From positions 1-64,000 of the IMG/VR virus record IMGVR_UViG_2795385844_000002: 64,000 bases of DNA. The stretch is one strand, 5' to 3'. Each line of letters opens with the position of its first letter. Position 1 is the first letter of the stretch. Below, in pieces: positions 7,071 to 18,585 of this stretch. Below the pieces are notes generated by a model. That model was not told the DNA's origin. It did no database searches and saw only the letters and a list, made by a program, of their open reading frames with translations. This stretch comes from a virus. Its lineage: Duplodnaviria; Heunggongvirae; Uroviricota; Caudoviricetes. Position numbers and translations under genes: made by a program.

Positions 7071-7324
7071 CGAGGTAGTGCCCCATCCACTCGCTTCATG
7101 ACTTCAGCGACGAGCGCCCATGAGCCATCCGAATATCGGTGGTGCAGTGTGCCTGACGCGCTGGCCTTCGGGATCTTCGTACCGTCCAGTAGCGTTGCCT
7201 CACGCTGCTCCGCATCCCATCGGTAGACGTATGCACTGCCACGGTCGGGGCTGAACATCTCCTGACGGGTGATGAATACTTCACCAATCACTGTGCTGTT
7301 AACCATAATTGGAATGATCAGCAT
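7067..7324 (-). CDS. hypothetical protein (85 aa)
   Basis: ORF track; overlapping stop/start with neighbours. Confidence 0.5.
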   Translation of the reverse strand: MLIIPIMVNSTVIGEVFITRQEMFSPDRGSAYVYRWDAEQREATLLDGTKIPKASASGTLHHRYSDGSWALVAEVMKRVDGALPR

Positions 7325-8615: not shown

Positions 8616-9448
8616 TCGATCACCTCAGTGAATGGCCCGAATCGCTCTTCGAGCAGACCTATGGAGCGCAAGGTGTACCACTCCTCGTCCCCAACCTTCG
8701 ACTTCCATGAACCCGAGCCGAACCTGTACCGACGCCCTACTAGGTCATCCACGGGACTCCACACGGTGCCGTCTCGGGCCTCTTCGCAATCCAGGCTCGG
8801 AAGTACACGGGGCTCAAGGATTTCGGTGTAAGGAGGCAGCGCGTCAGGTTCATAGGCATCCCCGTACAGATCACCGCCCAGGCCACCGCTCACCCATCGG
8901 GTGCCGTCGTGCCAGAACTCCAGCCCAGCACAGTTCCGCCACCGTGATCCCTGCTCGTCTACCCCTAGACGGTCAACGACACGGGGTTCCCGGTAGGGCT
9001 TGGGACGTCGTTCCTCCCAGTGCTGACGGATTTCGCCGCCCACATCTTCAGCAGTGCGCTCCGGTTCCTGTTGTGCTGTTGGGTCGGGCCGAGGCACAAT
9101 CGGCTCTTCGCCAGGTGGGAACCAATCCAACCCTACTTGTTCGGGCCACTCGTCGGGGCGGATCTGCGGCCAAGAGTCGGCGTCGTATTGGTTCTTTCGG
9201 GCAGGGGCATTCGGGTTCAGCTGGAAGTATTCCCAGAATGGTGCATCAAGACCCACTGTTCGGTGAGCAACCCACCCCCCGTCTGGTCGTCGTGCGATGG
9301 TGCCAACAGGTGCACCCTCGGGGATGCTGTTAGCGGCAGCGATGATCCGGTCTATGTACTCATCGGTGGTGTCCACCCGGCCCTGCCACTCATCAGCGGC
9401 CTCACCCATCGCTTTCCGCTGCGCTTCAGTCGGATTCAACACGTTCAC
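8612..9448 (-). CDS. hypothetical protein (278 aa); C-terminal domain paralogous to the product of 35743..36234
   Basis: Shared C-terminal pattern LDC(D/E)EARDG(T/A)VW...YRF..G.W...EVI. Confidence 0.6.
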   Translation of the reverse strand: MNVLNPTEAQRKAMGEAADEWQGRVDTTDEYIDRIIAAANSIPEGAPVGTIARRPDGGWVAHRTVGLDAPFWEYFQLNPNAPARKNQYDADSWPQIRPDEWPEQVGLDWFPPGEEPIVPRPDPTAQQEPERTAEDVGGEIRQHWEERRPKPYREPRVVDRLGVDEQGSRWRNCAGLEFWHDGTRWVSGGLGGDLYGDAYEPDALPPYTEILEPRVLPSLDCEEARDGTVWSPVDDLVGRRYRFGSGSWKSKVGDEEWYTLRSIGLLEERFGPFTEVIE

Positions 9449-10134
9449 CAGCCAAACTCCCTTGGTACATAGACTTGGTTCTGCGGTCGGATGAAGTCCG
9501 AATCCGCTGGCGGTTGGTCAGATTCTGTGATGCGAATCAGCAGACGCCATCCACGTTCAGTAGCCTGCGACGCCTGGTGGATGTTCCACCAATCCCATGA
9601 ATACCAAACACTCTCTTGCGCAACCAGTTTCCGCAGGGTCGTGCAACCATCAATCCGGCGAGTTAATTCTGAATAAAGCTGTTCGTCTTCGTCGTGCTCA
9701 ATCGGCAGGTGCAGTAATCCATCAATGAACACAGTTGGGCAGTCGTTTCCAACGTGCAGCGTGTGGTAGCGCGGGTAATAGCCCTCAAGGGAACGGTAAT
9801 TCTGCAGCGGGAGGGACGGCGCGCCCCAATTCGCTGGGGTCAAGGTCTCGTCTGCCGCGCTGTAGCGCGGAACCCCATCGGTATGCCACCCGGGAATCGC
9901 AGGCCACCAACCGGGCATCAGCATAGAGACCTTGGTGTCCACGAAGATGTGCTTGTGGTCCCCAACAATTGGGGCTGACTGCAGGAGTCCGCGCAAGAGT
10001 GGACCTCCATAGAGCACAGCATTCGACAGGCTCGCACGGCGCAGGTTCGGTGTCCCCTCGATTAAGCCAGAGGGATCTGAATACGCCTGGGGTCCAATGA
10101 CCACCGGGTTGCGGTTGAACCAATATGTGGTCAC
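9445..10134 (-). CDS. hypothetical protein (229 aa)
   Basis: ORF track; tight overlap with neighbours. Confidence 0.55.
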   Translation of the reverse strand: MTTYWFNRNPVVIGPQAYSDPSGLIEGTPNLRRASLSNAVLYGGPLLRGLLQSAPIVGDHKHIFVDTKVSMLMPGWWPAIPGWHTDGVPRYSAADETLTPANWGAPSLPLQNYRSLEGYYPRYHTLHVGNDCPTVFIDGLLHLPIEHDEDEQLYSELTRRIDGCTTLRKLVAQESVWYSWDWWNIHQASQATERGWRLLIRITESDQPPADSDFIRPQNQVYVPREFGW

Positions 10135-10481
10135 AGTAGCTTCAACTCCCCCGTGATCGGAGCGAGCTCTTCAGCCGTTGCAGGTCCAATAGCGCAACAC
10201 GTGGTCGTCAAGATGCCATGGAATTCGGTCTTCCCGTTATCCGTGATCAGTGCGTTCGGGAGGTTGGCTTTAATTGCCTTGCCCCAAAGGTCAATCAGGG
10301 CGTCTTCGCTCTCCACCCGTACGCAGACCTTCGTGAACGAACCCGCGAGCCACTCGACCACACGTGGGTCGTCGCGGTACTCGAGAACGGCCCCCAGAGA
10401 GGCGTGAGCACCCTGCGAAACCATCTTCCCGGCACGCATGCCGAGATCCTTACGCATGACGATTACCTGCTTCAGTCCCAT
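10131..10481 (-). CDS. pth2: peptidyl-tRNA hydrolase, PTH2 family
   Basis: 116 aa with a QGAHAS motif and PTH2-like fold signature. Confidence 0.8.
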   Translation of the reverse strand: MGLKQVIVMRKDLGMRAGKMVSQGAHASLGAVLEYRDDPRVVEWLAGSFTKVCVRVESEDALIDLWGKAIKANLPNALITDNGKTEFHGILTTTCCAIGPATAEELAPITGELKLL

Positions 10482-10684
10482 GGAATCAGTCCTGCGCTAT
10501 TCAGACGCTTCAGGCATGCGGCCATCTCCCGCAAACTGATGGGTTCCACAATGTCCTTGGCGTCTTCGGTAATGTGGCAGATCTCGCTCTGCTCCTCGAA
10601 GCAGATCAGTAGGATCTCTTCCAGATTGAGCTCCTCCAGATCACTCACTGTCGTACACCTCTCCCATGATCTGAGCGCCGTCAT
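10472..10684 (-). CDS. hypothetical acidic protein (70 aa)
   Basis: ORF track. Confidence 0.45.
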   Translation of the reverse strand: MTALRSWERCTTVSDLEELNLEEILLICFEEQSEICHITEDAKDIVEPISLREMAACLKRLNSAGLIPWD

Positions 10685-10764
10685 AGACGGTCACCGGGTC
10701 GTAGTCGCATGCCGAATCGCGGTACCCCTTGCCTGGGATCACCGGGTACTTCTCAAACCAGAAC

Positions 10765-11277
10765 TCACCGTGCAAGAGCGCACGGTCCAGTGTGTGGGTC
10801 GACGTGGTAACTGGCTGGTGGTGAACATAGCGGGCCGCTGTAGCCGAAATTGGTAACCGAGATCCCCGCGCGCTCTGCTCGCTTCATGCAATCCCAGGTA
10901 CCGCGTGAATCCTTCAACGGGAAGGCGATACACGTATCGGCACCACGGTCGACCATCTCCTGGTTTCGCAGGTGCCCAGCGACCGGGCAATAGCGAGTAC
11001 CGTTCTTCCACCGAACGGCATGAGTGCAGTGCTGGTCGCAGTCTCGGTACCAGTCCGCAGGAACGCCCTCGTTCATTACCGGAAAGCCCTTAGCCATCGC
11101 TTCGTCGGCCCACTGCGATGCGAACAGGTCAGCACCGCTCGGGCACTCCCCCTGCACCACAACGAGATCGCCCTGGCCGCGCTTCCCTGCAATCGCAAGC
11201 TGGGCATTCAGAGCGGAACGTACGAACTTGCGGGACGGCCAGGCCCGACTACCTGTAACCAGAACGCGGCGCGTCAT
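10765..11277 (-). CDS. DUF2493 / SLOG-family (DprA-like Rossmann) protein
   Basis: N-terminal VLVTGSRAW motif typical of DUF2493. Confidence 0.5.
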   Translation of the reverse strand: MTRRVLVTGSRAWPSRKFVRSALNAQLAIAGKRGQGDLVVVQGECPSGADLFASQWADEAMAKGFPVMNEGVPADWYRDCDQHCTHAVRWKNGTRYCPVAGHLRNQEMVDRGADTCIAFPLKDSRGTWDCMKRAERAGISVTNFGYSGPLCSPPASYHVDPHTGPCALAR

Positions 11278-11372
11278 AGCAAGGCACCCACAACTGTCAC
11301 CAATAGGCCGATCACCGCAACGACCATCGCAACCGGCAATAGTGTCAGCGGCAGGTCATAGACCAAACCCAT
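11274..11372 (-). CDS. tiny membrane peptide (32 aa)
   Basis: Internal ATG of a longer low-complexity ORF; hydrophobic; ATGA overlap with the 10765..11277 start. Confidence 0.3.
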   Translation of the reverse strand: MGLVYDLPLTLLPVAMVVAVIGLLVTVVGALL

Positions 11373-11431
11373 GACGCACATTCCTGACGGAACCCCTACG
11401 AGTACGCCCGACCAGTATGGAACGAGAGGGT

Positions 11432-11542
11432 TCAATGCCCCCACCTCAGCTCCATCAGAGTCGGGAAGATTAGGACCAGGATGACCACGAGCCCACCCAT
11501 CGCCAGTGACACGTACCAAGCCCAATCGTCCAGGCGCTTCAT
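11432..11542 (-). CDS. tiny membrane peptide (36 aa)
   Basis: MKRLDDWAWYVSLAMGGLVVILVLIFP...; ATGA overlap with the upstream gene. Confidence 0.3.
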   Translation of the reverse strand: MKRLDDWAWYVSLAMGGLVVILVLIFPTLMELRWGH

Positions 11543-11838
11543 AGCTTCTCCAGCTTGTAGGTTGAAAGAACCTTCCTGATCGCGCCTGGATAAGTCCACC
11601 CCTGTCCGGTCTCCTCTTCCACGGCGGCAATGAAGGCCTTCTCGACAGCCTCCTGCTCCTCAAGTGCCTGGTAAGTCTCAGCACGCTCTCCGAGCCATAG
11701 CGCGACCTCTCGGATTCGGTCCGTGCCTGGACTAGATGGGCCGGAAGAAATCCCGCGCCATATAATGTCGCGCGCGAACAAAATCATTTCCGGCGTGACA
11801 GTCGGAATCCTCTCGAAGTCATAGGGATTCGATGTCAT
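11539..11838 (-). CDS. hypothetical protein (99 aa)
   Basis: ORF track. Confidence 0.5.
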   Translation of the reverse strand: MTSNPYDFERIPTVTPEMILFARDIIWRGISSGPSSPGTDRIREVALWLGERAETYQALEEQEAVEKAFIAAVEEETGQGWTYPGAIRKVLSTYKLEKL

Positions 11839-11948
11839 GCCTGACGCTCCAGCTTGATGTTCTCAATCAGCTCCGCTACCGACGCTACGAAGTCAACGAC
11901 GCTCAGGGCGACGATTGTGATGCTCAAGTACTTTCTGAATTCCTTCAT
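11835..11948 (-). CDS. tiny membrane peptide (37 aa)
   Basis: MKEFRKYLSITIVALSVVDFVASV...; ATGA overlaps on both sides. Confidence 0.3.
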   Translation of the reverse strand: MKEFRKYLSITIVALSVVDFVASVAELIENIKLERQA

Positions 11949-11988
11949 ATACCAATGCTATTGAGCGATTCTGGGTTCATGTGGGTAC

Positions 11989-12017
11989 GAAAAAAGCCCC
12001 CAGCTTTCGCTGAGGGC
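11989..12017 (-). terminator. rho-independent terminator (minus strand) at the downstream end of the tRNA array
   Basis: GC hairpin GCCCCCAGC/GCTGAGGGC followed on the minus strand by UUUUUU. Confidence 0.5.
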
Positions 12018-12025
12018 TCTTCGAG

Positions 12026-12099
12026 TAGTCCATGCGGGAATCAAACCCGCACCAACACCTTGAAAAGAGGGTGGTGTGCTCTCACTACACCAATGGACC
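12026..12099 (-). tRNA. tRNA-like element, non-canonical (T-loop TTTGATT, anticodon arm does not fold)
   Basis: Acceptor GGTCCAT/ATGGACT, D-arm GTGT..GCAC and a perfect T-stem GCGGG/CCCGC, but no 5-bp anticodon stem; contains TTTTCAA. Confidence 0.3.
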
Positions 12100-12105
12100 T
12101 TAGGG

Positions 12106-12444
12106 CTATTGCTCAACCCACTTGCCGGATTCGCGAACCTCAGTCTTGAGGTTCACCGGCCACATATCGCGCTCAACCTGGGCCCGCTGCAGCTCCTCAC
12201 GACCGACCTGACGCTTCACCCATAGTTGGAACTTCGGTGAGTTCGCCATACGCCTGAATGCAGACTGCTTGTTCTGCAGCTGGCTACGCTCCTCGCGCGA
12301 CTCACCCACCGCGCCAGAAGGCTCATGCGTGATCCGCACACCCGTCTCGCGCTTGTTCTGGTTTTGACCGCCCTTGCCCCCGGCTCGGAACGTGTCTACG
12401 CGACAATCCGAGAGGGTGACGGACAGTACTCGTTCTCTACTCAC
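12106..12444 (-). CDS. arfB: ArfB/ICT1-like GGQ-domain peptidyl-tRNA hydrolase (class I release factor domain)
   Basis: RAGGKGGQNQNKRETGVRITHEPSG matches the GGQ motif region of RF1-domain proteins; basic C-terminal tail. Confidence 0.75.
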   Translation of the reverse strand: MSRERVLSVTLSDCRVDTFRAGGKGGQNQNKRETGVRITHEPSGAVGESREERSQLQNKQSAFRRMANSPKFQLWVKRQVGREELQRAQVERDMWPVNLKTEVRESGKWVEQ

Positions 12445-12445
12445 G

Positions 12446-12519
12446 TCAAGTCGACCGGATTTGAACCGGCGTCCCCCGCCGTGACAGGGCGGTGCTTTAG
12501 ACCTCTAAGCTACGACTCG
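12446..12519 (-). tRNA. tRNA-Asp (GTC)
   Basis: Full cloverleaf: acceptor CGAGTCG/CGACTTG, D GCTT/AAGC, anticodon stem CCGCC/GGCGG with loop CTGTCAC, T-arm GCCGG-TTCAAAT-CCGGT. Confidence 0.8.
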
Positions 12520-12630
12520 ATAAGCCGTTTTCCGCGCGCCGGTTTTCGAGTCCGACGCGCCAGGGTGGACGGCACCCTGAGCCAACTTTCTGGGAATCAA
12601 ACCCTGGAGCTGCTTGGCCAAAACTCCCGT

Positions 12631-12703
12631 GGAGACGGTGCGAATTGAACGCGACCACACCAATCTTGCAAGGATCGGTCGCCACCTTGGAACATGCGCC
12701 CCC
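12631..12703 (-). pseudogene. degenerate tRNA-like sequence (anticodon arm resembles tRNA-Ala TGC)
   Basis: Good anticodon arm CGATC-CTTGCAA-GATTG but the T-stem and acceptor do not pair. Confidence 0.25.
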
Positions 12704-12704
12704 A

Positions 12705-12781
12705 TGGGGCCTCATCGAGGTCTCGAACCCCGCGCCTCTTCGTTACTAAGGAAGTGCTCTAGCCAGATGAGCTAATGAGGC
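12705..12781 (-). tRNA. tRNA with encoded CCA, anticodon loop TTAGTAA (AGT, Thr-like; isotype uncertain)
   Basis: Acceptor GCCTCAT/ATGAGGC then C-CCA; D GCTC/GAGC; T-arm CGGGG-TTCGAGA-CCTCG; 31:39 C.C mismatch. Confidence 0.6.
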
Positions 12782-12782
12782 C

Positions 12783-12856
12783 TGGTACCTTGCGAGAGAA
12801 TTGAACTCCCATCCTCGGGGTGTAAACCCGGTGCCCTTCCGTTGGACGAGCAAGGC
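12783..12856 (-). tRNA. tRNA-Val (TAC), CCA encoded
   Basis: Acceptor GCCTTGC/GCAAGGT then A-CCA; anticodon loop TTTACAC; T-arm GGGAG-TTCAATT-CTCTC. Confidence 0.7.
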
Positions 12857-12981
12857 ATATTGAGCTTTTGGTTGAGGGTGCCAATGCTGCAGCGAGAGGT
12901 CCCTGGCGGATGCTCTATCCGCGCCATACTTCCGGCGACAACCGAAGTCTCCACCGTAGGGTCGCCCATCCCAGGGCGTCG

Positions 12982-13056
12982 AACGAGTGACCAGATTCGA
13001 ACTGGCACGACCTGTTTGGAAGACAGGGATGCTAAACCGTTAAACATCACACTCGC
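12982..13056 (-). tRNA. tRNA-Gly (TCC)
   Basis: Acceptor GCGAGTG/CACTCGT; anticodon arm CCTGT-CTTCCAA-ACAGG; T-arm GCCAG-TTCGAAT-CTGGT. Confidence 0.75.
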
Positions 13057-13104
13057 TTGAGTATGCAGATCGTAGGCTTCAAGGGTACGAAATGCGTACT
13101 GTTG

Positions 13105-13175
13105 CACGACCGACAGGAGTTGAACCTGCTTCCACGCGGCTTAGGAGGCCGTTGGTCTGTCCGAGTTACAGTCGT
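13105..13175 (-). tRNA. tRNA-Arg (CCT), short D-arm
   Basis: Acceptor ACGACTG/CGGTCGT; anticodon loop CTCCTAA; T-arm GCAGG-TTCAACT-CCTGT. Confidence 0.45.
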
Positions 13176-13182
13176 AAGTTGG

Positions 13183-13254
13183 TAAGCCCGCAGTGAGTTG
13201 AACACTGGTTTCCGCCTTATCAGAGCGGTGTCCTAACCATTGGACGACGAGCTA
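13183..13254 (-). tRNA. tRNA-Ile (GAT)
   Basis: D GTCC/GGAC; anticodon arm CCGCT-CTGATAA-GGCGG; T-arm CAGTG-TTCAACT-CACTG; 1:72 mismatch. Confidence 0.6.
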
Positions 13255-13255
13255 G

Positions 13256-13327
13256 TGGGTCTGGTAGGACTCGAACCTACGTCTCCGACTTAAGAGGACG
13301 GAGCTAAACCATCTCAGCTACAAACCC
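13256..13327 (-). tRNA. tRNA-Lys (CTT)
   Basis: Acceptor GGGTTTG/CAGACCC; anticodon loop CTCTTAA; T-arm GTAGG-TTCGAGT-CCTAC. Confidence 0.55.
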
Positions 13328-13335
13328 ATTGTTGG

Positions 13336-13407
13336 TAGGGCGCAAGGGATTCGAACCCTCAACACGCGAGGTAAAAGCTCGGGGTGATTCCGTTTCACCA
13401 ACGCCCA
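13336..13407 (-). tRNA. tRNA-Lys (TTT)
   Basis: D GTGA/TCAC; anticodon arm CCGAG-CTTTTAC-CTCGC; T-arm GAGGG-TTCGAAT-CCCTT. Confidence 0.6.
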
Positions 13408-13410
13408 ATA

Positions 13411-13647
13411 TCAATTCATTGCCGGAAACGCCTCCCACACATGCGGATAAGCAGCGCGGTATGCGTCGCGACTGGAGCGGGTAAGAATTGTCGTCGGCTT
13501 ACACCCGATAACCACCAGCCCTTCCCTGCGCACCCTCTCCACCGCGAGCTCAGGAGTCATCCTCCTGCCGTACACAAACATCGTGCCGGTGGTCGTCTCG
13601 ACATCGAATACTTTCACGTAGTCGGCGCGAGGATCGAACTCGCACAC
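13411..13647 (-). CDS. hypothetical protein (78 aa) embedded in the tRNA array
   Basis: ORF track; GTG start; no strong RBS. Confidence 0.3.
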   Translation of the reverse strand: MCEFDPRADYVKVFDVETTTGTMFVYGRRMTPELAVERVRREGLVVIGCKPTTILTRSSRDAYRAAYPHVWEAFPAMN

Positions 13648-13751
13648 ACCGAGGTTTGAGCTCGGCGGCTTTGCCAGGTTTGCCTAGCCGACCATGCTCA
13701 GCATTTAACCGACCCGAGGCGGTCGGCACCCGTGAGGGCTGTTTGAACCGG

Positions 13752-13825
13752 TACTCCAAGAGGGATTCGAACCCACAACCTCCAGGGTCTAAGCCTGTCG
13801 CCTCTGCCAGTTGGGCTATTGGAGC
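13752..13825 (-). tRNA. type-I tRNA with anticodon TAG (Leu-codon CUA reader, short variable loop)
   Basis: Acceptor GCTCCAA/TTGGAGT, A73; anticodon loop CTTAGAC; T-arm GTGGG-TTCGAAT-CCCTC. Confidence 0.5.
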
Positions 13826-13882
13826 TTGGTGCCGATATTGCCGCGTCGGCTTTACGGTGACTCCTACTCACCGAGCGCGTCG

Positions 13883-13954
13883 AGACGAAGGCCGGGATCG
13901 AACCGGCGTGGGCCAGGGTTGCAGCCTGCCAGCTAGCCACTCACTCACTTCGCC
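13883..13954 (-). tRNA. tRNA-Cys (GCA)
   Basis: Acceptor GGCGAAG/CTTCGTC; anticodon arm GCAGG-CTGCAAC-CCTGG; perfect T-arm GCCGG-TTCGATC-CCGGC. Confidence 0.6.
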
Positions 13955-13962
13955 TTAAGCCG

Positions 13963-14127
13963 CTATTCTGCGGCGGGTGCTGCCTTCTTCGCTGGTGCCT
14001 TCTTGGCTACCGGCTTTTCTTCCACTGCGTAGTGGAAGTCCTCAAGGGTATCCATACGATCAATCAGGTCGTTTACCGCCTTGACGATGTCGATATGGGC
14101 GATGCCCGTGCGCAGCTTGTCAGTCAT
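13963..14127 (-). CDS. small hypothetical protein (54 aa) within the tRNA array
   Basis: ATG at 14127; product MTDKLRTGIAHIDIVKAVNDL...KKAPAKKAAPAAE. Confidence 0.4.
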   Translation of the reverse strand: MTDKLRTGIAHIDIVKAVNDLIDRMDTLEDFHYAVEEKPVAKKAPAKKAAPAAE

Positions 14128-14150
14128 ATTGGCCTTTCGGTGTCTGTACG

Positions 14151-14221
14151 TCCCCGTGCGCGGAGTTGAACCGCGATAACCTCGGTCACAGCGAGGGGCT
14201 CTGCCATTGAGCTACACAAGG
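14151..14221 (-). tRNA. tRNA-His (GTG)
   Basis: Acceptor CCTTGTG/CACGGGG; D GCTC/GAGC; anticodon arm CCTCG-CTGTGAC-CGAGG; T-arm CGCGG-TTCAACT-CCGCG. Confidence 0.8.
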
Positions 14222-14285
14222 TATGGCGCTGGCCAGAGCAGCATGGCATCTCTGTTTCTTCGGGCTTTGTACCGGCAGCGCTAAG

Positions 14286-14360
14286 ACCCGTTGACAGGAT
14301 TCGAACCTGCATGCGTTGCGCCTTCGTAGGGCGGTGGGCGCTCCATTGCCCAACAACGGG
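14286..14360 (-). tRNA. tRNA-Arg (ACG)
   Basis: Acceptor CCCGTTG/CAACGGG; D GGGC/GCCC; anticodon loop CTACGAA; T-arm GCAGG-TTCGAAT-CCTGT. Confidence 0.65.
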
Positions 14361-14372
14361 AGCAGGCGGTTT

Positions 14373-14388
14373 AACGTGGAGTGCCCAG
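14373..14388. repeat. 16-bp direct repeat ACGTGGAGTGCCCAGC, copy 1 (inside tRNA array)
   Basis: Identical 16-mer again at 14644..14659. Confidence 0.6.
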
Positions 14389-14498
14389 CACGGAGCAGTT
14401 TTTCGTGATGTCTCAACACGGATGGTTCTTCCAGTTGTGAACCAACAACATTCATGAGCCAGTTTCTACCTCAGCCGTGTACTGGCAACCCTCGTCCG

Positions 14499-14573
14499 TG
14501 GCGGGTACCGGATTTGAACCGGTGGTCTCAAGGTTATGAGCCTTGCGAGATGGCCGAGCTTCTCTAACCCGCT
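14499..14573 (-). tRNA. tRNA-Met (CAT)
   Basis: D GAGA/TCTC; anticodon arm CAAGG-CTCATAA-CCTTG; perfect T-arm ACCGG-TTCAAAT-CCGGT; 1:72 A.C mismatch. Confidence 0.7.
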
Positions 14574-14643
14574 ATGTATGGTGACTCATTCCGACAGGAC
14601 AGTTCGTCGCCTACCGTATCCGCGCGAGTCAACGCGACCTTTT

Positions 14644-14659
14644 ACGTGGAGTGCCCAGC
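14644..14659. repeat. 16-bp direct repeat ACGTGGAGTGCCCAGC, copy 2
   Basis: Identical to 14373..14388. Confidence 0.6.
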
Positions 14660-14698
14660 TTTTCACCAGTAGCTGCGGAACCTGGTTTCCCTTACACG

Positions 14699-14772
14699 CC
14701 GACTCTCCCCGAATCGAACGGGGGCGCACCGGGCTTCAACCGGTCGCTCTTACCTAACTGAGCTAAGAGTCG
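14699..14772 (-). tRNA. tRNA-Phe (GAA)
   Basis: Acceptor CGACTCT/AGAGTCG; D GCTC/GAGC; anticodon arm ACCGG-TTGAAGC-CCGGT; T-arm CCCCG-TTCGATT-CGGGG. Confidence 0.85.
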
Positions 14773-15066
14773 ATTGTTAGAGGCTGAGAGTACACCCGCT
14801 ATCGAGAACCTTTCGCAGCATTATGGATTCGCTGCTTCTCCAGGCCATCCCTGACCTAGTTCTCACGCCTGGTCCGTTACCGTGAACCACTCGTTATGCC
14901 GAAAGCTACTCTGCGGCTTTCCCTTCGCGATGAGATGGCCGTCTCACTGCTGCAGTACTTGCCTACAAACCGCACTCACCTTGCGGGACTATTGTGCGGC
15001 CCAGATTCCCGAGGGTCTGGGATTAAGGCGCTTTTGCTCCTCGGCAGGGGAAGGACTTTTGCTTTT

Positions 15067-15138
15067 AATTGACGACGGGACTTGAACCCGCACATCCAGT
15101 TTCCAATAACTGGTGACCTACCGTTGGTCTACGTCATT
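15067..15138 (-). tRNA. tRNA with 8-nt anticodon loop TATTGGAA (Gln-TTG or Pro-TGG-like; possible quadruplet or frameshift decoder)
   Basis: Good D (GACC/GGTC) and T arms; anticodon arm CCAGT-TATTGGAA-ACTGG is 18 nt instead of the usual 17. Confidence 0.5.
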
Positions 15139-15592
15139 CTCACAGCGGAGAATGATTTGACTAGAGACGTGCTTCCCCATGAAGTTCCGAACCCTTTTGG
15201 GGCACAGAATGCTTCACGCCTCTCGTGCTTTCGCCTGGCGGGGCTAATTACACTCTCTCTCAACCACATTGCGAGCCGTCGCCCGACGCGAGATCGATCA
15301 TGGAACACGCCCTTGCTTGCGAGGCTCGGACTCAGTTCCTTCCGTTCCACAGGGCGCTCGTTCAATAGCCTTTTCACACGCACGTACGTGATGGTGTCCT
15401 CAGCACTTTGCCGTTGGACGGGGCGTAACTCGCAACCTGGCAGCCATCTCTGACTGCTCAAGGATTGGATTGCATGGATTGCCCTTGCGGGTGGTGGGTT
15501 GTCACCCCACCTTTCACCACCTTGCGGTGGCTTATGGGCCATACCCCGAATGTCTTAACTATATCTCCCACAACAGAGTTCGTGTGGGTGAG

Positions 15593-15675
15593 CGGAGAGG
15601 CAGGTATTCGAAACCTACTGCGAACAGCGCTCCGGTTAGCAACCGGGCCTAGTCACCTAACTAGTTGCGCTCTCC
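15593..15675 (-). tRNA. tRNA-Ser (GCT), type II
   Basis: 83 nt; anticodon loop TTGCTAA; long variable arm GCGCTGTTCGCAG; T-arm TAGGT-TTCGAAT-ACCTG. Confidence 0.6.
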
Positions 15676-15754
15676 ATGGTCCACCATTTCAGCACTGACG
15701 CGATCTTCAGTGCACCTGTTCAGCCACCGTTCAGGCAGGTGGAAGTCTTTAGAG

Positions 15755-15839
15755 CGGAAAGTCGAGGAATCGAACCCCCAGGACGCACTGCCTGCCCCGG
15801 TATTCGACGCCGGTTGCCGACCATTCAGCGGGACCTTCC
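15755..15839 (-). tRNA. putative type-II tRNA (Ser-CGA-like), low confidence
   Basis: 85 nt; acceptor GGAAGGT/ACTTTCC; T-loop TTCGATT; anticodon region GTCGAAT; imperfect stems. Confidence 0.35.
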
Positions 15840-15921
15840 ATCGCCCCAGAATTCATGACGCAGCCTGGCGCACACTGCGGACAGCCAACTCGTGGCAGGT
15901 ACCTACCGGTTGACCCTAAAG

Positions 15922-15993
15922 CTGAAGACCCTGGATTCGAACCAAGAACTGCGACGTTCAGAGCGTCGTGTGTTGCCGTTACACCAATCTTCA
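15922..15993 (-). tRNA. tRNA-Gln (CTG)
   Basis: D GTGT/ACAC; anticodon arm CGACG-CTCTGAA-CGTCG; T-arm CTTGG-TTCGAAT-CCAGG. Confidence 0.75.
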
Positions 15994-16072
15994 ATGCTGA
16001 GACTGGCCTTGCGGGCGGGGGAACGTTTCTGCTTGCCGCAAGCCTTCAGTTCGTTCCACACCAGTCTCATTG

Positions 16073-16150
16073 TCTCGCCGTCAGGAGTCGAACCTGCACA
16101 CCCGAAGGAGCAGATTTACAGTCTGCGTTGATCGCCTATTCGCGACGAGA
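16073..16150 (-). tRNA. tRNA-Tyr (GTA), type II
   Basis: Anticodon arm GCAGA-CTGTAAA-TCTGC; variable arm TCCTTCGGGTGT; acceptor CTCGTCG/CGGCGAG. Confidence 0.6.
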
Positions 16151-16201
16151 TTGGAGCCAGTGCTCGGCTTCTCGCCGATTCGCATGCACACACTGACATG
16201 G

Positions 16202-16274
16202 CTGGCTTGGAAGGATTCGAACCTACACCTCGCGAGTTAACAGCTCGCTGCTCTACCAATTGAGCTACAGGCCA
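16202..16274 (-). tRNA. tRNA-Asn (GTT)
   Basis: Canonical TAGCTCAATTGGTAGAGC D-arm; anticodon arm GCGAG-CTGTTAA-CTCGC; T-arm GTAGG-TTCGAAT-CCTTC. Confidence 0.8.
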
Positions 16275-16393
16275 AGGGCGAGGGTGGCCAGTGTCAGCGC
16301 GCTTTCTGACCTGTGCGACCCTCTTGCCCGTCCTGCTTAGAGATGAGACGGAGCCGAAAACACCCGTACGGTCATCGTACGTGATGACGAACG

Positions 16394-16469
16394 TCTGCCA
16401 GGCGCGATTTGAACACGCGATCTCCTGGACCCAAACCAGGCGGGATGGCCAAACTTCCCTACAAGCAGA
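16394..16469 (-). tRNA. tRNA-Pro (TGG)
   Basis: D GGGA/TCCC; anticodon arm CCTGG-TTTGGGT-CCAGG; T-arm GCGTG-TTCAAAT-CGCGC. Confidence 0.75.
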
Positions 16470-16711
16470 TGATGGACGACACGGCCCAGGTACGGCACCT
16501 CAGGTCGGATCCTTTTTGTCGGAACCTACTGCGGGATTACCCTGCCATCCATGTGACCATCAGCATCCCGATGGCCGCGCGGAGATGTCTCTCCACATTC
16601 CCCGTACGACCGACGCTTTCCTGGAGCTACCTGTACTTGCGTATATGGTCTGACAGCCGGGGCCACACTGACTAACGAGGATGTTCTCCCTTTGCACTAC
16701 CGGCAGCCTAC

Positions 16712-16736
16712 GCCGCCAGTCGGGGCTCGAACCCGA
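16712..16736 (-). other. orphan T-arm/acceptor-like hairpin immediately 3' of the tmRNA (possible processing signal, terminator or tRNA remnant)
   Basis: Perfect TCGGG-TTCGAGC-CCCGA hairpin plus CTGGCGG, but no upstream tRNA body. Confidence 0.3.
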
Positions 16737-16748
16737 ATCTTCCTCTCG

Positions 16749-17102
16749 TGGAGCTGCCCGGAATTGAACCGGGATGTTACGTGACTTGTCACAGTCTTCT
16801 ACGTGCGTAGTCCACCGATTGGGTCGGTTGGGGTGGACGCCTGTCCGAATCGAGACCTCAGACTCTCGACCGATCTTCCAGCACAGTTTGTCGCCTGAGA
16901 GCTGGTCATTGCGAGTTCCCCGTATTCGCGACGGTGGATTGGTACACGGAACGGGTAAACCGTTGTACCCCACCGGACTACGCAGCTAGGGCGTAGTCGG
17001 ACTGAGCAGAAGCTGCAGTTATTGTGGTTGCACTGTTACGGGCGTTGCATGCCCGGCACGCTTCTCAGTAAGTTGACACGCAATCGAATACCTGTCAGCC
17101 CC
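16749..17102 (-). ncRNA. ssrA: tmRNA (ssrA), about 354 nt, tag peptide AASAQSDYALAA
   Basis: 5' GGGGCUGACAGGUAUUCGAUUG (compare E. coli GGGGCUGAUUCUGGAUUCGAC); 3' CCCGG-UUCAAUU-CCGGG-CAGCUCCA with a G3:U70 and A73 Ala-identity acceptor; internal ORF GCA GCU UCU GCU CAG UCC GAC UAC GCC CUA GCU GCG UAG. Confidence 0.85.
16978..17016 (-). other. tmRNA tag-peptide reading frame (AASAQSDYALAA, stop UAG)
   Basis: Preceded by AAUAACU (compare E. coli AAUAGUC); ends in the classic ...YALAA degron. Confidence 0.75.
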
Positions 17103-17159
17103 ATTGAAGTATCTATATCTCTATGGAGTTTTCAAATGTCATGCCACACAAAGGCATTG

Positions 17160-17230
17160 CCCGGATGGAGAGAATCGAACTCCCGTTGGCGGGTTTGGAA
17201 GCCGCTGTCCTGCCACTGGACCACATCCGA
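17160..17230 (-). tRNA. tRNA-Trp (CCA)
   Basis: D GTCC/GGAC; anticodon loop TTCCAAA; T-arm GGGAG-TTCGATT-CTCTC; acceptor TCGGATG/CATCCGG. Confidence 0.65.
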
Positions 17231-17304
17231 ATTTCCAGATTTTCAGGCCCTGGTAGCCCCTCTTGCTGAACTAAGTCTACGACCCACCCACATGAACCCC
17301 TAGC

Positions 17305-17344
17305 GAATAAAAACGGGCCCCGATCCATTGAGGAACCGGGGCCC
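17305..17344 (-). terminator. rho-independent terminator (minus strand) upstream of the tRNA/tmRNA array
   Basis: 7-bp GC stem GGGCCCC/GGGGCCC followed on the minus strand by GUUUUUAUU. Confidence 0.55.
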
Positions 17345-17364
17345 AACGTCGAGAAAGCCTACGC

Positions 17365-17544
17365 TTACTGCTTGGTTGGGAAGGTTCCGTCATCAGCCGG
17401 AATGGTGCCGTTCCACCATCCGTGAGCCTTCGCCTGTGACCACTTGTCGCGGTCAGCCGACCCATAGATGGCCTCGACCACCTGCGAGCGGAACAGGTCA
17501 GCCTGTGGAGTTCCCGCTACGGGCTTGTTGTTCTGATTCGCCAT
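17365..17544 (-). CDS. hypothetical protein (59 aa)
   Basis: ATG at 17544 with an AAGGA RBS 9 nt upstream; not in the ORF track (shorter than 60 aa). Confidence 0.45.
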   Translation of the reverse strand: MANQNNKPVAGTPQADLFRSQVVEAIYGSADRDKWSQAKAHGWWNGTIPADDGTFPTKQ

Positions 17545-17622
17545 GTGGTGAGTCCTTGCCTGAAAGTCTTTGATGCACAGACACTGTGCTTACATCTTTA
17601 TTCTAGCACGCGTTTGCTGTGA

Positions 17623-17985
17623 CTATTCCCGCCAGTTCCTTGACGTGGGATGTTTGACCTTCTTCTTCGCCTTCCCGCCTCGACGCTGATTGCAAACCAG
17701 GTGGCAGGGAACGAGATTCGAAACGTCGTAGCAGAGTGGGTCATCCCAGGCGAGATCTTTCACGGGGATGATGTGGTCTACGGTCGCGCTCATCGGGTCA
17801 GGCCATTTGAGGTTCAGGTCAATGAACTCGTGACACTGGTCGCAGATCTGACTGGCTCGCAAAACACGCGCCTTTGCCTTCTCGAACCTTACCCCGGTTC
17901 GCCCCAGGGAGCGAGGGCCTTTCGTTGAGCTGGTGGGCAAGTAAGTAGTCCTTCGCGCGCGTGAGCATTTCGACAGAGTCGTCAA
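17623..17985 (-). CDS. HNH endonuclease
   Basis: CDQC...DHIIPV...N...H HNH motif; the N-terminus overlaps the upstream EndoVII gene, so the start is uncertain. Confidence 0.55.
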   Translation of the reverse strand: MTTLSKCSRARRTTYLPTSSTKGPRSLGRTGVRFEKAKARVLRASQICDQCHEFIDLNLKWPDPMSATVDHIIPVKDLAWDDPLCYDVSNLVPCHLVCNQRRGGKAKKKVKHPTSRNWRE

Positions 17986-18412
17986 ACAGACCTAATGCCG
18001 TGTTGCAGGTCTTGCATAGAAGGCCACGGATGCATCTGCCGCAGCTCTTATTTGCTGCGCAGCAGGTGTGATCATGATCAACGCAGATCTTCCCATCCAG
18101 CAGCTCGTCTGCGCATATAGCGCATCGCCCGCCCTGGTTGGACCTCATCTGCGTGAGATCATCTGGCGTTAGTCCAAACCGATAGAAGTAGGCGCGCGCC
18201 CGCATGCACCTCTTGCAGTGAGTTCGACGCTGACGCCCGTTGTGTCCGTGGTTGCCATAAAACTCAGAAACGGGTAGATGCTGCTTGCACCAATTGCACT
18301 GTCGGACCTCTGATACATCTGTCTCTAAATTCATTATCTCACTAATTTGGCCACGCTCACTGCGGCAACCCGGCCCATCCCTCAAGACGTACCAGACGGC
18401 GCTCAAGTTCAT
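17819..18412 (-). CDS. endonuclease VII-like (Endonuclease_7 domain) protein
   Basis: CAICAD...CVDHDHTCC...GRCIRGLLCKTCNTALG Zn-binding EndoVII signature. Confidence 0.6.
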   Translation of the reverse strand: MNLSAVWYVLRDGPGCRSERGQISEIMNLETDVSEVRQCNWCKQHLPVSEFYGNHGHNGRQRRTHCKRCMRARAYFYRFGLTPDDLTQMRSNQGGRCAICADELLDGKICVDHDHTCCAANKSCGRCIRGLLCKTCNTALGLFDDSVEMLTRAKDYLLAHQLNERPSLPGANRGKVREGKGACFASQSDLRPVSRVH

Positions 18413-18585
18413 CCAGGCGCGCGTTCTGAGCCTTGTCCGTATCGTCCGGTCATCAAGCGGAAACCCGCCTCATACAGCGCCTCTGCGGCCTTCAGGGCTC
18501 CACCCTCGTTCGGATAGACGTCAGTCCAGTCGTAGAAGCGTCCATTGACGCGGGCCTTTGCATGCTGCTTGATGAGCGCGGTCAT
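18409..18585 (-). CDS. hypothetical protein (58 aa; internal start of the 94-aa ORF)
   Basis: The start at 18585 avoids overlap with the upstream SPFH gene, which ends at 18612. Confidence 0.35.
   Translation of the reverse strand: MTALIKQHAKARVNGRFYDWTDVYPNEGGALKAAEALYEAGFRLMTGRYGQGSERAPG

What the first reader, a model, noticed from the sequence alone, without database searches (positions are those of the whole stretch)
16749..17102. Phage-encoded tmRNA (ssrA) with a complete tag ORF, located inside the tRNA array
The minus-strand RNA starts GGGGCUGACAGGUAUUCGAUUG, close to the E. coli tmRNA 5' end GGGGCUGAUUCUGGAUUCGAC. It ends CCCGG-UUCAAUU-CCGGG-CAGCUCCA. Its 7-bp acceptor pairs perfectly with G3:U70 and A73 (alanine identity). 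An internal frame after AAUAACU reads GCA GCU UCU GCU CAG UCC GAC UAC GCC CUA GCU GCG UAG, giving AASAQSDYALAA, a typical ssrA degron ending in YALAA. tmRNA genes in phages are known but rare, for example in large tRNA-rich mycobacteriophages. This one could redirect or saturate host trans-translation or tag proteins for ClpXP; a ClpP-like gene is also present in the window at 32266..32784.
Basis: partly seen in the sequence, partly recalled or inferred. Interest (0 to 1): 0.85.

Follow-up and report, generated by a model that had tools for sequence, protein, structure and literature searches.

The report
Prophage tmRNA gene, already known
The region is a genuine, structurally intact ribosome-rescue RNA (tmRNA) carried by a Mycobacterium abscessus prophage, but a 99.4% identical copy with the same tag is already annotated in GenBank and reported in published work, so it is real but not new.

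Summary
ARAGORN calls a tmRNA at 16748..17102 (-) with tag AASAQSDYALAA*. Rfam RF00023 scores 85.7 bits (threshold 47, E 7.7e-32) over the full model. It lies inside an array of 21 tRNA calls.

The window is a cluster MabI prophage of M. abscessus (Mclasvirinae). Its tmRNA is 99.4% identical to gene 110 of prophiT49-2 (OQ417962), which is annotated with the same tag. MabI tmRNAs are reported in Dedrick 2021 and Amarh 2023. tmRNAs in mycobacterial tRNA arrays are reported in Morgado 2018.

Comparison with about 20 related phage tmRNAs shows:
- an invariant acceptor stem with G3:U;
- compensatory changes in the T-arm, helix 5, PK1 and PK2;
- a 12-codon tag frame conserved in register in the 12 aligned phages.

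The PK3-PK4 zone is a swapped, hypervariable cassette and is only partly testable. No SmpB is encoded and CCA is not templated, so the RNA must rely on host SmpB, AlaRS, RNase P and the CCA-adding enzyme.

The most likely role is a working trans-translation RNA. It would form part of a phage translation-maintenance module with the tRNAs, a stand-alone GGQ release-factor domain and Pth2. The ClpP-like gene exists, but nothing links it to the tag.

Novelty: already known. Interest: low.

The parts
16749..17102 (-). tmRNA (ssrA) gene, mature RNA from G1 (17102) to discriminator A354 (16749); the next three bases (16746-16748) read CGA, not CCA
   Evidence: ARAGORN; Rfam RF00023 85.7 bits, E 7.7e-32, full model; 99.4% identical to the annotated tmRNA of prophiT49-2
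17096..17102 (-). Acceptor stem 5' strand GGGGCUG (RNA 1-7), containing G3 of the G3:U alanine identity pair
   Evidence: Pairs 1-7 with 347-353; invariant in 12 of 12 and 11 of 11 distinct sequences
16750..16756 (-). Acceptor stem 3' strand CAGCUCC (RNA 347-353), followed by discriminator A at 16749
16757..16773 (-). T-arm: stem CCCGG/CCGGG, loop UUCAAUU (RNA 330-346)
   Evidence: 3 of 5 pairs show double-sided compensatory changes across 11 distinct tRNA-like domains (CG/GC/UA); 2 of 5 in the 12-sequence set
17056..17083 (-). 5' strand of long helix P2 (P2a RNA 20-24; P2c RNA 42-47) joining the tRNA-like domain to the pseudoknot ring
   Evidence: P2a and P2c 100% paired in 12 sequences, mostly invariant; also found by alifold
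16777..16806 (-). 3' strand of helix P2 (RNA 297-302 and 322-326), including the invariant UACGCACGUAGAAG
17029..17055 (-). Pseudoknot PK1 (stem 1 RNA 48-51/61-64; stem 2 RNA 54-57/71-74)
   Evidence: Stem 1 invariant. Stem 2 has one pair switching C-G to A-U on both sides, but only 62.5% of its cells pair
16978..17016 (-). Tag reading frame: resume codon GCA (17014-17016) after AAUAACU, 12 codons AASAQSDYALAA, stop UAG (16978-16980)
   Evidence: ARAGORN coding part 87-125. The same 12-codon register occurs in 12 of 12 aligned phage tmRNAs, with synonymous changes
16976..16998 (-). Helix 5 (RNA 105-112/120-127), holding the stop codon in its 3' strand
   Evidence: 100% paired. The synonymous Asp codon change GAC to GAU compensates the stop change UAG to UGA
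16919..16975 (-). Pseudoknot PK2 (stems RNA 128-133/166-171, 135-138/158-161, 140-143/154-157; pseudoknot stem 148-152/180-184)
   Evidence: 3 pairs with double-sided changes. The pseudoknot stem is invariant on both strands
16811..16916 (-). Hypervariable middle cassette (RNA 187-292), where PK3 and PK4 lie. Hand-drawn candidates: PK3 189-192/209-212 plus 198-202/221-225; PK4 255-258/276-279 plus 265-271/287-293
   Evidence: Replaced en bloc between otherwise 95-98% identical tmRNAs. The nested fold is no better than shuffles, z = -0.06. A helix ending just before UACGCACG is kept with differing sequences in most cassette types, but it is reached by 21% of shuffles in the window itself
17108..17135 (-). 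Promoter-like element TTGAAA-16 nt-GATACT ending 5 nt before the tmRNA 5' G. It overlaps the conserved motif TTGAnAACTnnATAG (17121-17135)
   Evidence: The only sigma-70-like hit in 11800-18500, not significant alone. The motif is conserved upstream of the tmRNA in relatives and is unique in the window
17159..17230 (-). tRNA-Trp(cca), the first gene of the array and always the immediate upstream neighbour of the tmRNA
12025..17230 (-). tRNA array (21 tRNA calls, one of them inside the GOLLD RNA) that contains the tmRNA
12106..12444 (-). Stand-alone GGQ (RF-1) domain protein, 112 aa, inside the array between tRNA-Asp and tRNA-Glu; candidate codon-independent peptidyl-tRNA hydrolase
   Evidence: Pfam RF-1 67.5 bits. 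NCBIfam hits cover the GGQ domain only: prfB 68.9, PrfH 54.3, ArfB 25.5 bits, all below cut-offs. PDB alignment shows GGQ
10131..10481 (-). Peptidyl-tRNA hydrolase of the Pth2 type, 116 aa
   Evidence: Pfam PTH2 106.8 bits; NCBIfam arch_pth2 94.7 bits, above its cut-off of 82

Best explanation
This is a functional one-piece tmRNA gene carried by a temperate mycobacteriophage. The phage is a cluster MabI prophage (subfamily Mclasvirinae), integrated in a sequenced bacterial isolate, most likely Mycobacterium abscessus.

Shown here:
- The RNA has a complete tRNA-like domain: a 7-bp acceptor stem with G3:U, discriminator A, and a T-arm.
- It has helix P2 and PK1.
- It has an Ala resume codon behind the AUA motif, and a 12-codon tag ending in the host-type degron DYALAA.
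- The stop codon sits in helix 5, followed by PK2.
- All of these are kept by compensatory or synonymous change across related phages.

Inferred:
- The RNA is transcribed with the tRNA array, or from its own promoter-like element, during lytic growth.
- RNase P trims the 5' end. Because CCA is not templated, host enzymes finish the 3' end.
- Host AlaRS charges it with alanine. Host SmpB binds it, since no phage SmpB exists, and EF-Tu delivers it.
- It enters ribosomes stalled on broken or stop-less mRNAs, adds AASAQSDYALAA, and releases the ribosome. The tagged peptide then goes to the host Clp proteases.

Together with about 20 tRNAs, a stand-alone GGQ release-factor domain and Pth2, it would keep the ribosome pool working while infection, or host RNA-cleaving defences, damage mRNAs and tRNAs.
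For: Identity:
- ARAGORN and Rfam both call it.
- It is 99.4% identical to the annotated tmRNA of prophiT49-2, with the identical tag.

Structure under selection:
- 95.7% of pair cells are paired, against 33-53% when partners are slid.
- 7 pairs show double-sided changes, and 0 of 500 shuffles reach the observed covariation.
- The T-arm has three pair types at one position.
- G3:U and A73 are invariant.

Coding frame under selection:
- 12 of 12 aligned phages keep a 12-codon frame in register with GCN resume codons.
- Synonymous changes occur, and a synonymous GAC to GAU change compensates the stop codon change inside helix 5.
- The AUA at -6 to -4 is kept.

Tag:
- The tag matches the host tag ADSNQRDYALAA (PMC6133939) at 9 of 12 positions, including the whole C-terminal DYALAA.

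Dependence on the host:
- No SmpB in the window (tblastn best E 2.9).
- None is annotated in the closest relative.

Synteny:
- The order tRNA-Trp then tmRNA is conserved in all MabI prophages, cluster M phages and M. palauense examined.

Neighbouring rescue-type genes:
- GGQ domain protein and Pth2.

Precedent:
- Dedrick 2021 reads the MabI array, tmRNA and release factor as translational reprogramming in lytic growth.
Against: - No expression, alanylation, SmpB-binding or tagging data exist for this RNA or for any MabI or cluster M tmRNA.
- The PK3-PK4 zone is not conserved. In the window it folds no better than shuffled sequence, and its pseudoknots are hand-drawn.
- PK1 stem 2 pairs in only 62.5% of cells.
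- CCA is not encoded.
- The promoter-like match is not statistically significant on its own.
- The benefit to the phage is inferred only.
- I could not obtain the host M. abscessus ssrA sequence, so the comparison with the host rests on the published M. smegmatis and M. tuberculosis tags.
Confidence: 0.85

Rival explanations
1. Decoy or inhibitor. The RNA mainly titrates host SmpB, AlaRS or EF-Tu, or outcompetes the host tmRNA, and so shuts down or redirects host trans-translation rather than rescuing ribosomes for the phage.
For: - The phage encodes no SmpB, so it must draw on the host pool.
- Phage tmRNA can be extremely abundant; in Wildcat it gives 15 times the signal of structural genes.
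- Phage DS6A carries a tRNA-like-domain-only molecule. Molecules of that kind inhibit tmRNA, perhaps by titrating SmpB (PMC4131195).
Against: - A pure decoy needs no reading frame, yet the 12-codon frame, the resume context and helix 5 are all kept by synonymous and compensatory change in the 12 aligned relatives.
- The tag ends in the canonical host degron.
- Competition with the host tmRNA is compatible with normal function and need not be the purpose.
Confidence: 0.07
2. Dedicated tagging for a phage protease. The tag directs proteins to the phage's own ClpP-like protease (32266..32784) rather than to the host Clp machinery.
For: - A ClpP-family protein is encoded in the same transcriptional direction.
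- Its Ser/His/Asp triad aligns with that of ClpP.
- The homologous gene is annotated in the MabI relative prophiT49-2.
Against: - The gene is 15 kb away, beside ERF and Cas4-type recombination genes.
- The protein starts at about ClpP residue 30, so it lacks the N-terminal axial loops that dock the unfoldase.
- NCBIfam scores it equally as a ClpP subfamily member (64.4 bits) and as a ClpP-related head-maturation protease (63.5 bits), both far below cut-offs.
- No ClpX-like unfoldase is annotated in the closest relative, and ssrA tags are recognised by the unfoldase, not by ClpP (general knowledge).
Confidence: 0.05
3. Inactive relic. The gene was copied from a host long ago, travels with the tRNA array, and no longer works.
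For: - The middle third is hypervariable and not detectably structured in the window.
- CCA is not templated.
- ARAGORN fails to recognise several relatives.
Against: - The functional parts (acceptor stem, T-arm, P2, PK1, resume context, tag, helix 5, PK2) are 73-100% conserved and covary across phages whose genomes are otherwise only about 78% identical or unalignable.
- All relatives score 80-118 bits in Rfam over the full model.
- From general knowledge of E. coli tmRNA mutagenesis, PK2-PK4 can be replaced without loss of function.
Confidence: 0.03

Closest known systems
tmRNA of Mycobacterium phage prophiT49-2 (GenBank OQ417962, gene 110; cluster MabI; Amarh et al. 2023, PMC9934374)
   Same: 99.4% identical over 357 nt, with the identical tag AASAQSDYALAA*. 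It has the same position between tRNA-Trp(cca) and tRNA-Pro(tgg), and the same prophage type.
   Different: - Two base substitutions.
- The surrounding array differs: the window lacks RtcB, tRNA-Glu(ctc), tRNA-Ala(tgc) and one HNH gene. In place of RtcB it has a SLOG/YspA-family gene.
tmRNAs of prophi86-1 and prophiGD54-2 (cluster MabI; Dedrick et al. 2021, PMC8092301)
   Same: Same lineage and synteny. The tags are AASAQSDYALAA or ANAHQSDYALAA, and the tRNA-like domain, PK1, helix 5 and PK2 are the same.
   Different: The middle PK3-PK4 cassette is unrelated: 57-63% in a global alignment, against 88-98% in the flanks.
tmRNAs of cluster M mycobacteriophages (Bongo gene 92, Rey gene 105, Aziz gene 103, and unannotated copies in MrMagoo, Nanosmite, Reindeer, Estes, SlimJimmy)
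   Same: Same subfamily (Mclasvirinae) and same synteny after tRNA-Trp. They share the same architecture and a 12-codon tag in the same register. Rfam scores are 93-112 bits.
   Different: - The tags are AAFVAADYAVGA, AAFVAADYAVGV or AAFVDADYAVAA, which do not end in LAA.
- The stop codon is UGA.
- The T-stem is GCGGG/CCCGC.
- The hosts are M. smegmatis, and the middle cassettes differ.
Host mycobacterial tmRNA (M. smegmatis ssrA, tag ADSNQRDYALAA, PMC6133939; M. tuberculosis ADSHQRDYALAA, PMC4416901)
   Same: One-piece tmRNA with a tRNA-like domain, helices 2 and 5 and pseudoknots. The tag is 12 residues long and 9 of 12 residues are identical, including DYALAA.
   Different: - The window's copy is carried by a prophage inside a tRNA array.
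- The charged residues D2 and R6 of the host tag are replaced by A and S.
Other phage tmRNAs: Wildcat (cluster V), the Bxz1 group (cluster C1), Bacillus phage G, and the DS6A tRNA-like-domain-only RNA (Hudson et al. 2014, PMC4131195)
   Same: Phage-borne ssrA in tRNA-rich genomes. The Wildcat tmRNA is very highly expressed in lytic growth.
   Different: - Only the first ~64 nt resemble Wildcat (78% identity), and the Bxz1-group tmRNAs gave no match in the same search.
- Tags are longer in cluster V phage EniyanLRS (22 aa), in Kumao (31 aa) and in M. palauense (30 aa).
- DS6A lacks the reading frame.

Membership tests
tmRNA (ssrA; Rfam RF00023, one-piece type) | Covariance-model score above the curated gathering threshold over the full model | tested here: met
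   85.7 bits against 47, E 7.7e-32, model positions 1-374. ARAGORN calls it independently.
tmRNA (ssrA; Rfam RF00023, one-piece type) | tRNA-like domain formed by the 5' and 3' ends: a 7-bp acceptor stem with the G3:U70 alanine identity pair, discriminator A, and a T-arm with a 5-bp stem and 7-nt loop | tested here: met
   All 7 acceptor pairs, including G3:U, are invariant. The T-arm is fully paired, with 2-3 doubly compensated pairs.
tmRNA (ssrA; Rfam RF00023, one-piece type) | 3'-terminal CCA for aminoacylation | tested here: not met
   The DNA reads CGA after the discriminator. Relatives read CGA, CTA, CTG, CCT or CCA. From general knowledge, CCA is not templated in many bacterial tRNA and tmRNA genes and is added after transcription, so this does not exclude membership. 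It does mean maturation depends on a CCA-adding enzyme.
tmRNA (ssrA; Rfam RF00023, one-piece type) | Long helix (P2) connecting the tRNA-like domain to the pseudoknot ring | tested here: met
   P2a (5 bp) and P2c (6 bp) are 100% paired in 12 sequences. They are mostly invariant, so conservation rather than covariation supports them. The middle part, P2b, is irregular and was not resolved.
tmRNA (ssrA; Rfam RF00023, one-piece type) | Pseudoknot PK1 immediately upstream of the reading frame | tested here: met
   Stem 1 is invariant (4 bp). Stem 2 has one doubly compensated pair (C-G to A-U), but only 62.5% of its cells pair across the family. In the window all 4 pairs form.
tmRNA (ssrA; Rfam RF00023, one-piece type) | mRNA-like domain: an Ala resume codon with a conserved upstream A-rich context, a short frame encoding a degradation tag, and a stop codon in or next to helix 5 | tested here: met
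   GCA follows AAUAACU. The tag is AASAQSDYALAA and the stop UAG lies in the 3' strand of helix 5. The frame is conserved in 12 of 12 aligned phages, and helix 5 is 100% paired with a compensated stop-codon change.
tmRNA (ssrA; Rfam RF00023, one-piece type) | Pseudoknots PK2, PK3 and PK4 downstream of the frame | tested here: inconclusive
   PK2 is met, with 3 doubly compensated pairs and an invariant pseudoknot stem. PK3 and PK4 lie in a cassette that is swapped between relatives. The window's version has hand-drawn H-type candidates only, and its nested fold has z = -0.06. A PK4-closing helix recurs with differing sequences in most cassette types but is weak against shuffles.
tmRNA (ssrA; Rfam RF00023, one-piece type) | Alanylation by AlaRS, binding of SmpB and EF-Tu, and tagging activity on stalled ribosomes | not testable with these tools
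   Biochemical properties. Only the sequence determinants (G3:U, A73, the tRNA-like domain) could be checked.
Cluster MabI prophages of M. abscessus (Vilmaviridae, Mclasvirinae) | Nucleotide similarity across the genome to the named MabI prophages, with a tRNA array plus tmRNA, a release-factor gene and a serine integrase | tested here: met
   Window 1-25000 is 96.0% identical to prophiT49-2 over 86% and 95.3% identical to prophi86-1 over 84%. The serine integrase is among the matched features. The array, tmRNA and RF-1 gene are present.
   The Pfam superfamily hit is clear (67.7 bits) and the Ser/His/Asp triad aligns. However, every NCBIfam ClpP equivalog or subfamily model scores far below its cut-off (at most 64 bits against 228-361). 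A ClpP-related head-maturation protease model scores the same (63.5 bits). The alignment starts at about ClpP residue 30.

The most novel reading that the evidence does not exclude
Phage tmRNAs of this lineage may be modular. The reading-frame segment and the PK3-PK4 segment are exchanged as cassettes between phages, and the tag appears tuned to the host.

- Prophages of M. abscessus carry the host-type degron DYALAA, but with the charged N-terminal residues of the host tag removed.
- M. smegmatis phages carry DYAVGA, DYAVGV or DYAVAA.
- Other members of the lineage carry 30-31-residue tags.

If this reflects selection, the phage would be using its own tmRNA to control the fate of proteins tagged during infection: how fast, or by which protease or adaptor, they are destroyed. 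That goes beyond simply adding rescue capacity. It could work together with the stand-alone GGQ protein, Pth2 and perhaps the ClpP-like protein.
Probability: 0.1. Interest if true: 0.5.

Novelty: already known. Interest (0 to 1): 0.15.

Why it matters
Why some phages carry their own tmRNA has not been settled experimentally. I found no functional study beyond the expression data for phage Wildcat. This window adds no new kind of object.

A near-identical RNA with the same tag is already annotated in GenBank. The MabI prophage tmRNAs, and tmRNAs in mycobacterial tRNA arrays, are published. Culturable relatives on M. smegmatis (Bongo, Rey, Aziz) are better experimental systems.

The modest value added here is comparative:
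- The lineage's tmRNA is present in every Mclasvirinae genome examined, including several GenBank records that do not annotate it.
- Its functional core is under clear purifying and compensatory selection.
- Its middle third and its tag are mosaic.
- It must work with host SmpB.

Tried and rejected
1. SmpB in the window. tblastn with E. coli SmpB gave only noise (best E 2.9), and none is annotated in prophiT49-2. The query is a distant homologue, so a very divergent phage SmpB cannot be fully excluded.

2. Host M. abscessus ssrA for a nucleotide-level comparison. This was not obtained. The single genome-contig scan went on the phage-type signature, so the host comparison rests on published tags.

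3. A CCA-adding enzyme in the phage. The 'nucleotidyltransferase' homologue (36231..37034) is an RlaP-family RNA-repair nucleotidyltransferase, not a recognisable CCA-adding enzyme.

4. RtcB next to the RF-1 gene, as in prophiT49-2. It is absent from this window.

5. Plasmid copies of this tmRNA. None found in PLSDB.

6. A structured element or tRNA remnant in the 278-nt spacer downstream of the tmRNA. No Rfam hit at E <= 1.

7. Evidence for PK3 and PK4 from folding energy. The middle cassette folds no better than shuffles. An anchored-helix test shows a recurring PK4-closing helix, but each case is weak on its own; 21% of shuffles reach it in the window.

8. The sigma-70-like promoter. The single hit lies just upstream of the tmRNA, but 2.2 hits are expected by chance in the scanned region. 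The conserved motif sits at a variable distance from +1, so its role is unresolved.

9. Pope et al. 2014, the cluster M paper. It is not held in the library.
Full report
**Observation.**

- On the minus strand the RNA begins GGGGCUGACAGGUAUUCGAUUG at 17102.
- It ends CCCGG-UUCAAUU-CCGGG-CAGCUCCA, with the discriminator A at 16749.
- ARAGORN reports a tmRNA at 16748..17102 (-) with tag AASAQSDYALAA*.
- Rfam RF00023 matches 16746..17102 (-) at 85.7 bits (gathering 47, E 7.7e-32) over the complete model.
- The gene lies inside a minus-strand array of 21 tRNA calls spanning 12025..17230. tRNA-Trp(cca) is 56 nt upstream.

The only correction concerns the 3' end. The three bases after the discriminator are CGA, so CCA is not templated.

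**What the window is.**

- The first 25 kb are 96.0% identical (86% coverage) to Mycobacterium phage prophiT49-2 and 95.3% identical to prophi86-1. Both are cluster MabI prophages of M. abscessus (Vilmaviridae; Mclasvirinae).
- Window 6106..18444 is 100% identical to contig FVIS01000007.1 of NCBI assembly GCA_900134015.1 (352 kb) and to a Logan assembly of ERR351976. It is therefore an integrated prophage in a sequenced isolate.
- The tmRNA itself is 99.4% identical to gene 110 of prophiT49-2, which GenBank annotates as 'tmRNA, tag peptide AASAQSDYALAA*'.

The literature already covers this.
- Dedrick et al. [quoted passage not shown]
- Amarh et al. 2023 list prophiT49-2 with 24 tRNAs and a tmRNA (PMC9934374).
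- Morgado and Vicente 2018 reported tmRNA, RF-1 and Pth genes inside mycobacterial and mycobacteriophage tRNA arrays (PMC5966550).
- Hudson et al. 2014 list phage ssrA genes (PMC4131195).

**Anatomy and selection.**

I collected the syntenic region from three MabI prophages and eight cluster M phages.
- Rfam finds a full-length tmRNA in all of them (85.9-111.5 bits), always just downstream of tRNA-Trp.
- ARAGORN calls only four.
- A signature search found one species-representative genome (Mycolicibacterium palauense) and 13 IMG/VR contigs. All nine that were not duplicates of phages already examined have the tmRNA.

In a 12-sequence alignment the 5' 186 nt and the 3' 65 nt are conserved, while the middle is not alignable. 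I wrote an explicit structure in window-RNA coordinates and counted it on that alignment.
- 95.7% of cells pair, against 33-53% when partners are slid.
- 7 pairs have changes on both sides.
- No shuffle of 500 reaches the observed covariation score.
- The acceptor stem, including G3:U, is invariant.
- Across 11 distinct tRNA-like domains, the T-arm has three doubly compensated pairs.

All 12 sequences keep a 12-codon frame in the same register, starting with GCN behind AUAA. The synonymous Asp codon change GAC to GAU pairs with the stop-codon change UAG to UGA inside helix 5. That change satisfies coding and structure at once. PK1 stem 1 and the PK2 pseudoknot stem are invariant on both strands. 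PK1 stem 2 has one compensated pair, and the PK2 hairpin stems have three.

**The middle third.**

RNA positions 187-292 (window 16811..16916) behave as a swapped cassette.
- prophi86-1 is 98%, 63% and 95% identical to the window in the 5', middle and 3' segments.
- Some cassette halves are shared across clusters, for example between GD54-2 and Reindeer.

In the window this segment folds no better than shuffled sequence (z = -0.06). The whole RNA has z = -3.13. H-type pseudoknots can be drawn by hand. A helix ending just before the invariant UACGCACG recurs with differing sequences in most cassette types. Each single case is weak against shuffles, however. I therefore rate PK3 and PK4 as inconclusive for this sequence. 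From general knowledge of E. coli tmRNA, PK2-PK4 tolerate replacement, so this does not argue against function.

**Dependence on the host.**

- There is no SmpB in the window (tblastn best E 2.9). None is annotated in prophiT49-2.
- CCA is not templated.
- The annotated 'nucleotidyltransferase' homologue is an RlaP-family RNA-repair enzyme.
- The RNA must therefore use host SmpB, AlaRS, EF-Tu, RNase P and the CCA-adding enzyme. This is inference.

**Transcription signals.**

- A strong terminator-like hairpin (17345..17314, -) precedes tRNA-Trp.
- The only sigma-70-like match in 11800..18500 ends 5 nt before the tmRNA 5' G. It is not significant alone.
- The motif TTGAnAACTnnATAG is conserved upstream of the tmRNA in the MabI prophages, most cluster M phages and M. 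palauense. It is unique in the window.
- Its distance to +1 varies, so its role is unresolved.

**Tag.**

The published host tags are ADSNQRDYALAA (M. smegmatis, PMC6133939) and ADSHQRDYALAA (M. tuberculosis, PMC4416901).
- The window's tag has the same length and matches the M. smegmatis tag at 9 of 12 residues, including the whole DYALAA end.
- It replaces D2, N4 and R6 with A, A and S.
- Cluster M phages of M. smegmatis instead end in YAVGA, YAVGV or YAVAA.
- Other members of the lineage have 30-31-residue tags.

**Neighbours.**

- A 112-aa protein consisting only of the GGQ (RF-1) domain lies at 12106..12444.
- A Pth2-type peptidyl-tRNA hydrolase lies at 10131..10481.
- Morgado and Vicente 2018 already classed these array genes with the tmRNA as ribosome-rescue and translation genes.
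- RtcB, present in prophiT49-2, is absent here.

The ClpP-like gene at 32266..32784 is real, and its Ser/His/Asp triad aligns. Three things weigh against a link to the tag.
- It sits beside ERF and Cas4-type genes.
- It lacks the first ~30 residues of ClpP.
- It scores the same against ClpP-related head-maturation proteases as against ClpP.

**Mechanism.**

The best explanation is an ordinary, working tmRNA that adds ribosome-rescue capacity during phage growth, as part of a phage translation-maintenance module (confidence 0.85).
- The identity and the selection on structure and frame are shown.
- Expression, charging, SmpB use, tagging and the benefit to the phage are inferred.

The rivals are a decoy that titrates SmpB, dedicated tagging for the phage ClpP-like protein, and an inactive relic. 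Each is disfavoured by the conserved frame, by the features of the ClpP-like protein, or by the covariation.

**Verdict.**

The finding is correct and well described, but it is already known. A near-identical gene with the same tag is annotated and published. Interest is low (0.15). The reading that would raise it is that cassette exchange and host-specific tags reflect selection on the fate of tagged proteins. That is possible but unsupported (probability about 0.1).

Noticed in passing
window 14781..15224 (-): GOLLD RNA (Rfam RF02032, 196.1 bits, gathering 150, full model), with a tRNA-like insert (ARAGORN 15066..15139, 'anticodon tg'), sits in the same array about 1.5 kb downstream of the tmRNA. 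The same tmRNA-GOLLD pairing occurs in 5 cluster M phages, 4 MabI-type viral contigs and M. palauense. GenBank annotates only the inner 'tRNA-OTHER' in prophiT49-2. GOLLD in Mycobacterium tRNA arrays is already published (Morgado et al. 2020, cited in PMC12286853; Behra 2019, PMC6582537).
   Followed up: yes
L004 399-742, L005 399-751, L006 399-769, L010 399-762, L011 375-786 (all minus); also L016 2505-2945, L026 777-1170: Full-length tmRNAs (Rfam 95-112 bits) in cluster M phages MrMagoo, Nanosmite, Reindeer, Estes and SlimJimmy carry no tmRNA feature in GenBank. ARAGORN does not call them, nor those of Bongo, M. palauense and one viral contig. The genome announcement states a tmRNA for Aziz but not for Estes (PMC7953290). 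This looks like systematic under-annotation.
   Followed up: partly
window 16811..16916 (-); compare L002, L003, L006: The middle third of the tmRNA is exchanged as a block between otherwise 95-98% identical genes (98/63/95% for prophi86-1). Cassette halves are shared across phage clusters. Two viral contigs combine a window-like 5' half with a different 3' tRNA-like-domain half. This is mosaicism inside a single RNA gene, and its cause is unknown.
   Followed up: partly
window 17121..17135 (-): The motif TTGAnAACTnnATAG is conserved upstream of the tmRNA in the MabI prophages, most cluster M phages and M. palauense. It is unique in the 64-kb window and lies at a variable distance (about 22-43 nt) from the mature 5' end. 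It overlaps the only sigma-70-like promoter match in the array region.
   Followed up: partly
window 12106..12444 (-) and 10131..10481 (-): A 112-aa protein consists of just the GGQ peptidyl-tRNA hydrolase domain of class I release factors, with no codon-recognition domains and no strongly basic ArfB-like tail. A Pth2-type peptidyl-tRNA hydrolase lies nearby. In prophiT49-2 an RtcB ligase sits next to the GGQ gene, which resembles the PrfH-RtcB pairing. In this window a SLOG/YspA-family gene (10765..11277) lies there instead of RtcB.
   Followed up: partly
window 32266..32784 (-): A ClpP-superfamily protein (172 aa) has an aligned Ser/His/Asp triad but no N-terminal axial-loop region. It is encoded among early recombination genes (ERF, Cas4-type exonuclease) rather than with the capsid genes. 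NCBIfam cannot decide between ClpP and a ClpP-related head-maturation protease. No prohead protease is annotated in the structural operon of prophiT49-2.
   Followed up: partly
window 36231..37034 (+): An RlaP-family 'RNA repair pathway' nucleotidyltransferase (Pfam PF10127, 108.7 bits). It is another RNA-maintenance gene in this prophage.
   Followed up: no
window 17314..17345 (-): A strong intrinsic-terminator-like hairpin (13-bp stem, 9 G-C pairs, followed by UUUUUAUU) lies just upstream of tRNA-Trp. This suggests the tRNA/tmRNA array is a transcription unit separate from the genes before it.
   Followed up: no
L016 2505-2945 (-) (Mycolicibacterium palauense) and L028 439-847 (+) (phage Kumao): Members of the same tmRNA lineage, sharing the P2c/PK1 signature, carry much longer tags: AVDTDADFAAWEAELDFSVEDIEAEFLVAA* by hand translation and ADYNDADSMLQASASLLAEAVLTERGALVAA*. 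The reading-frame segment therefore varies as a module too.
   Followed up: partly
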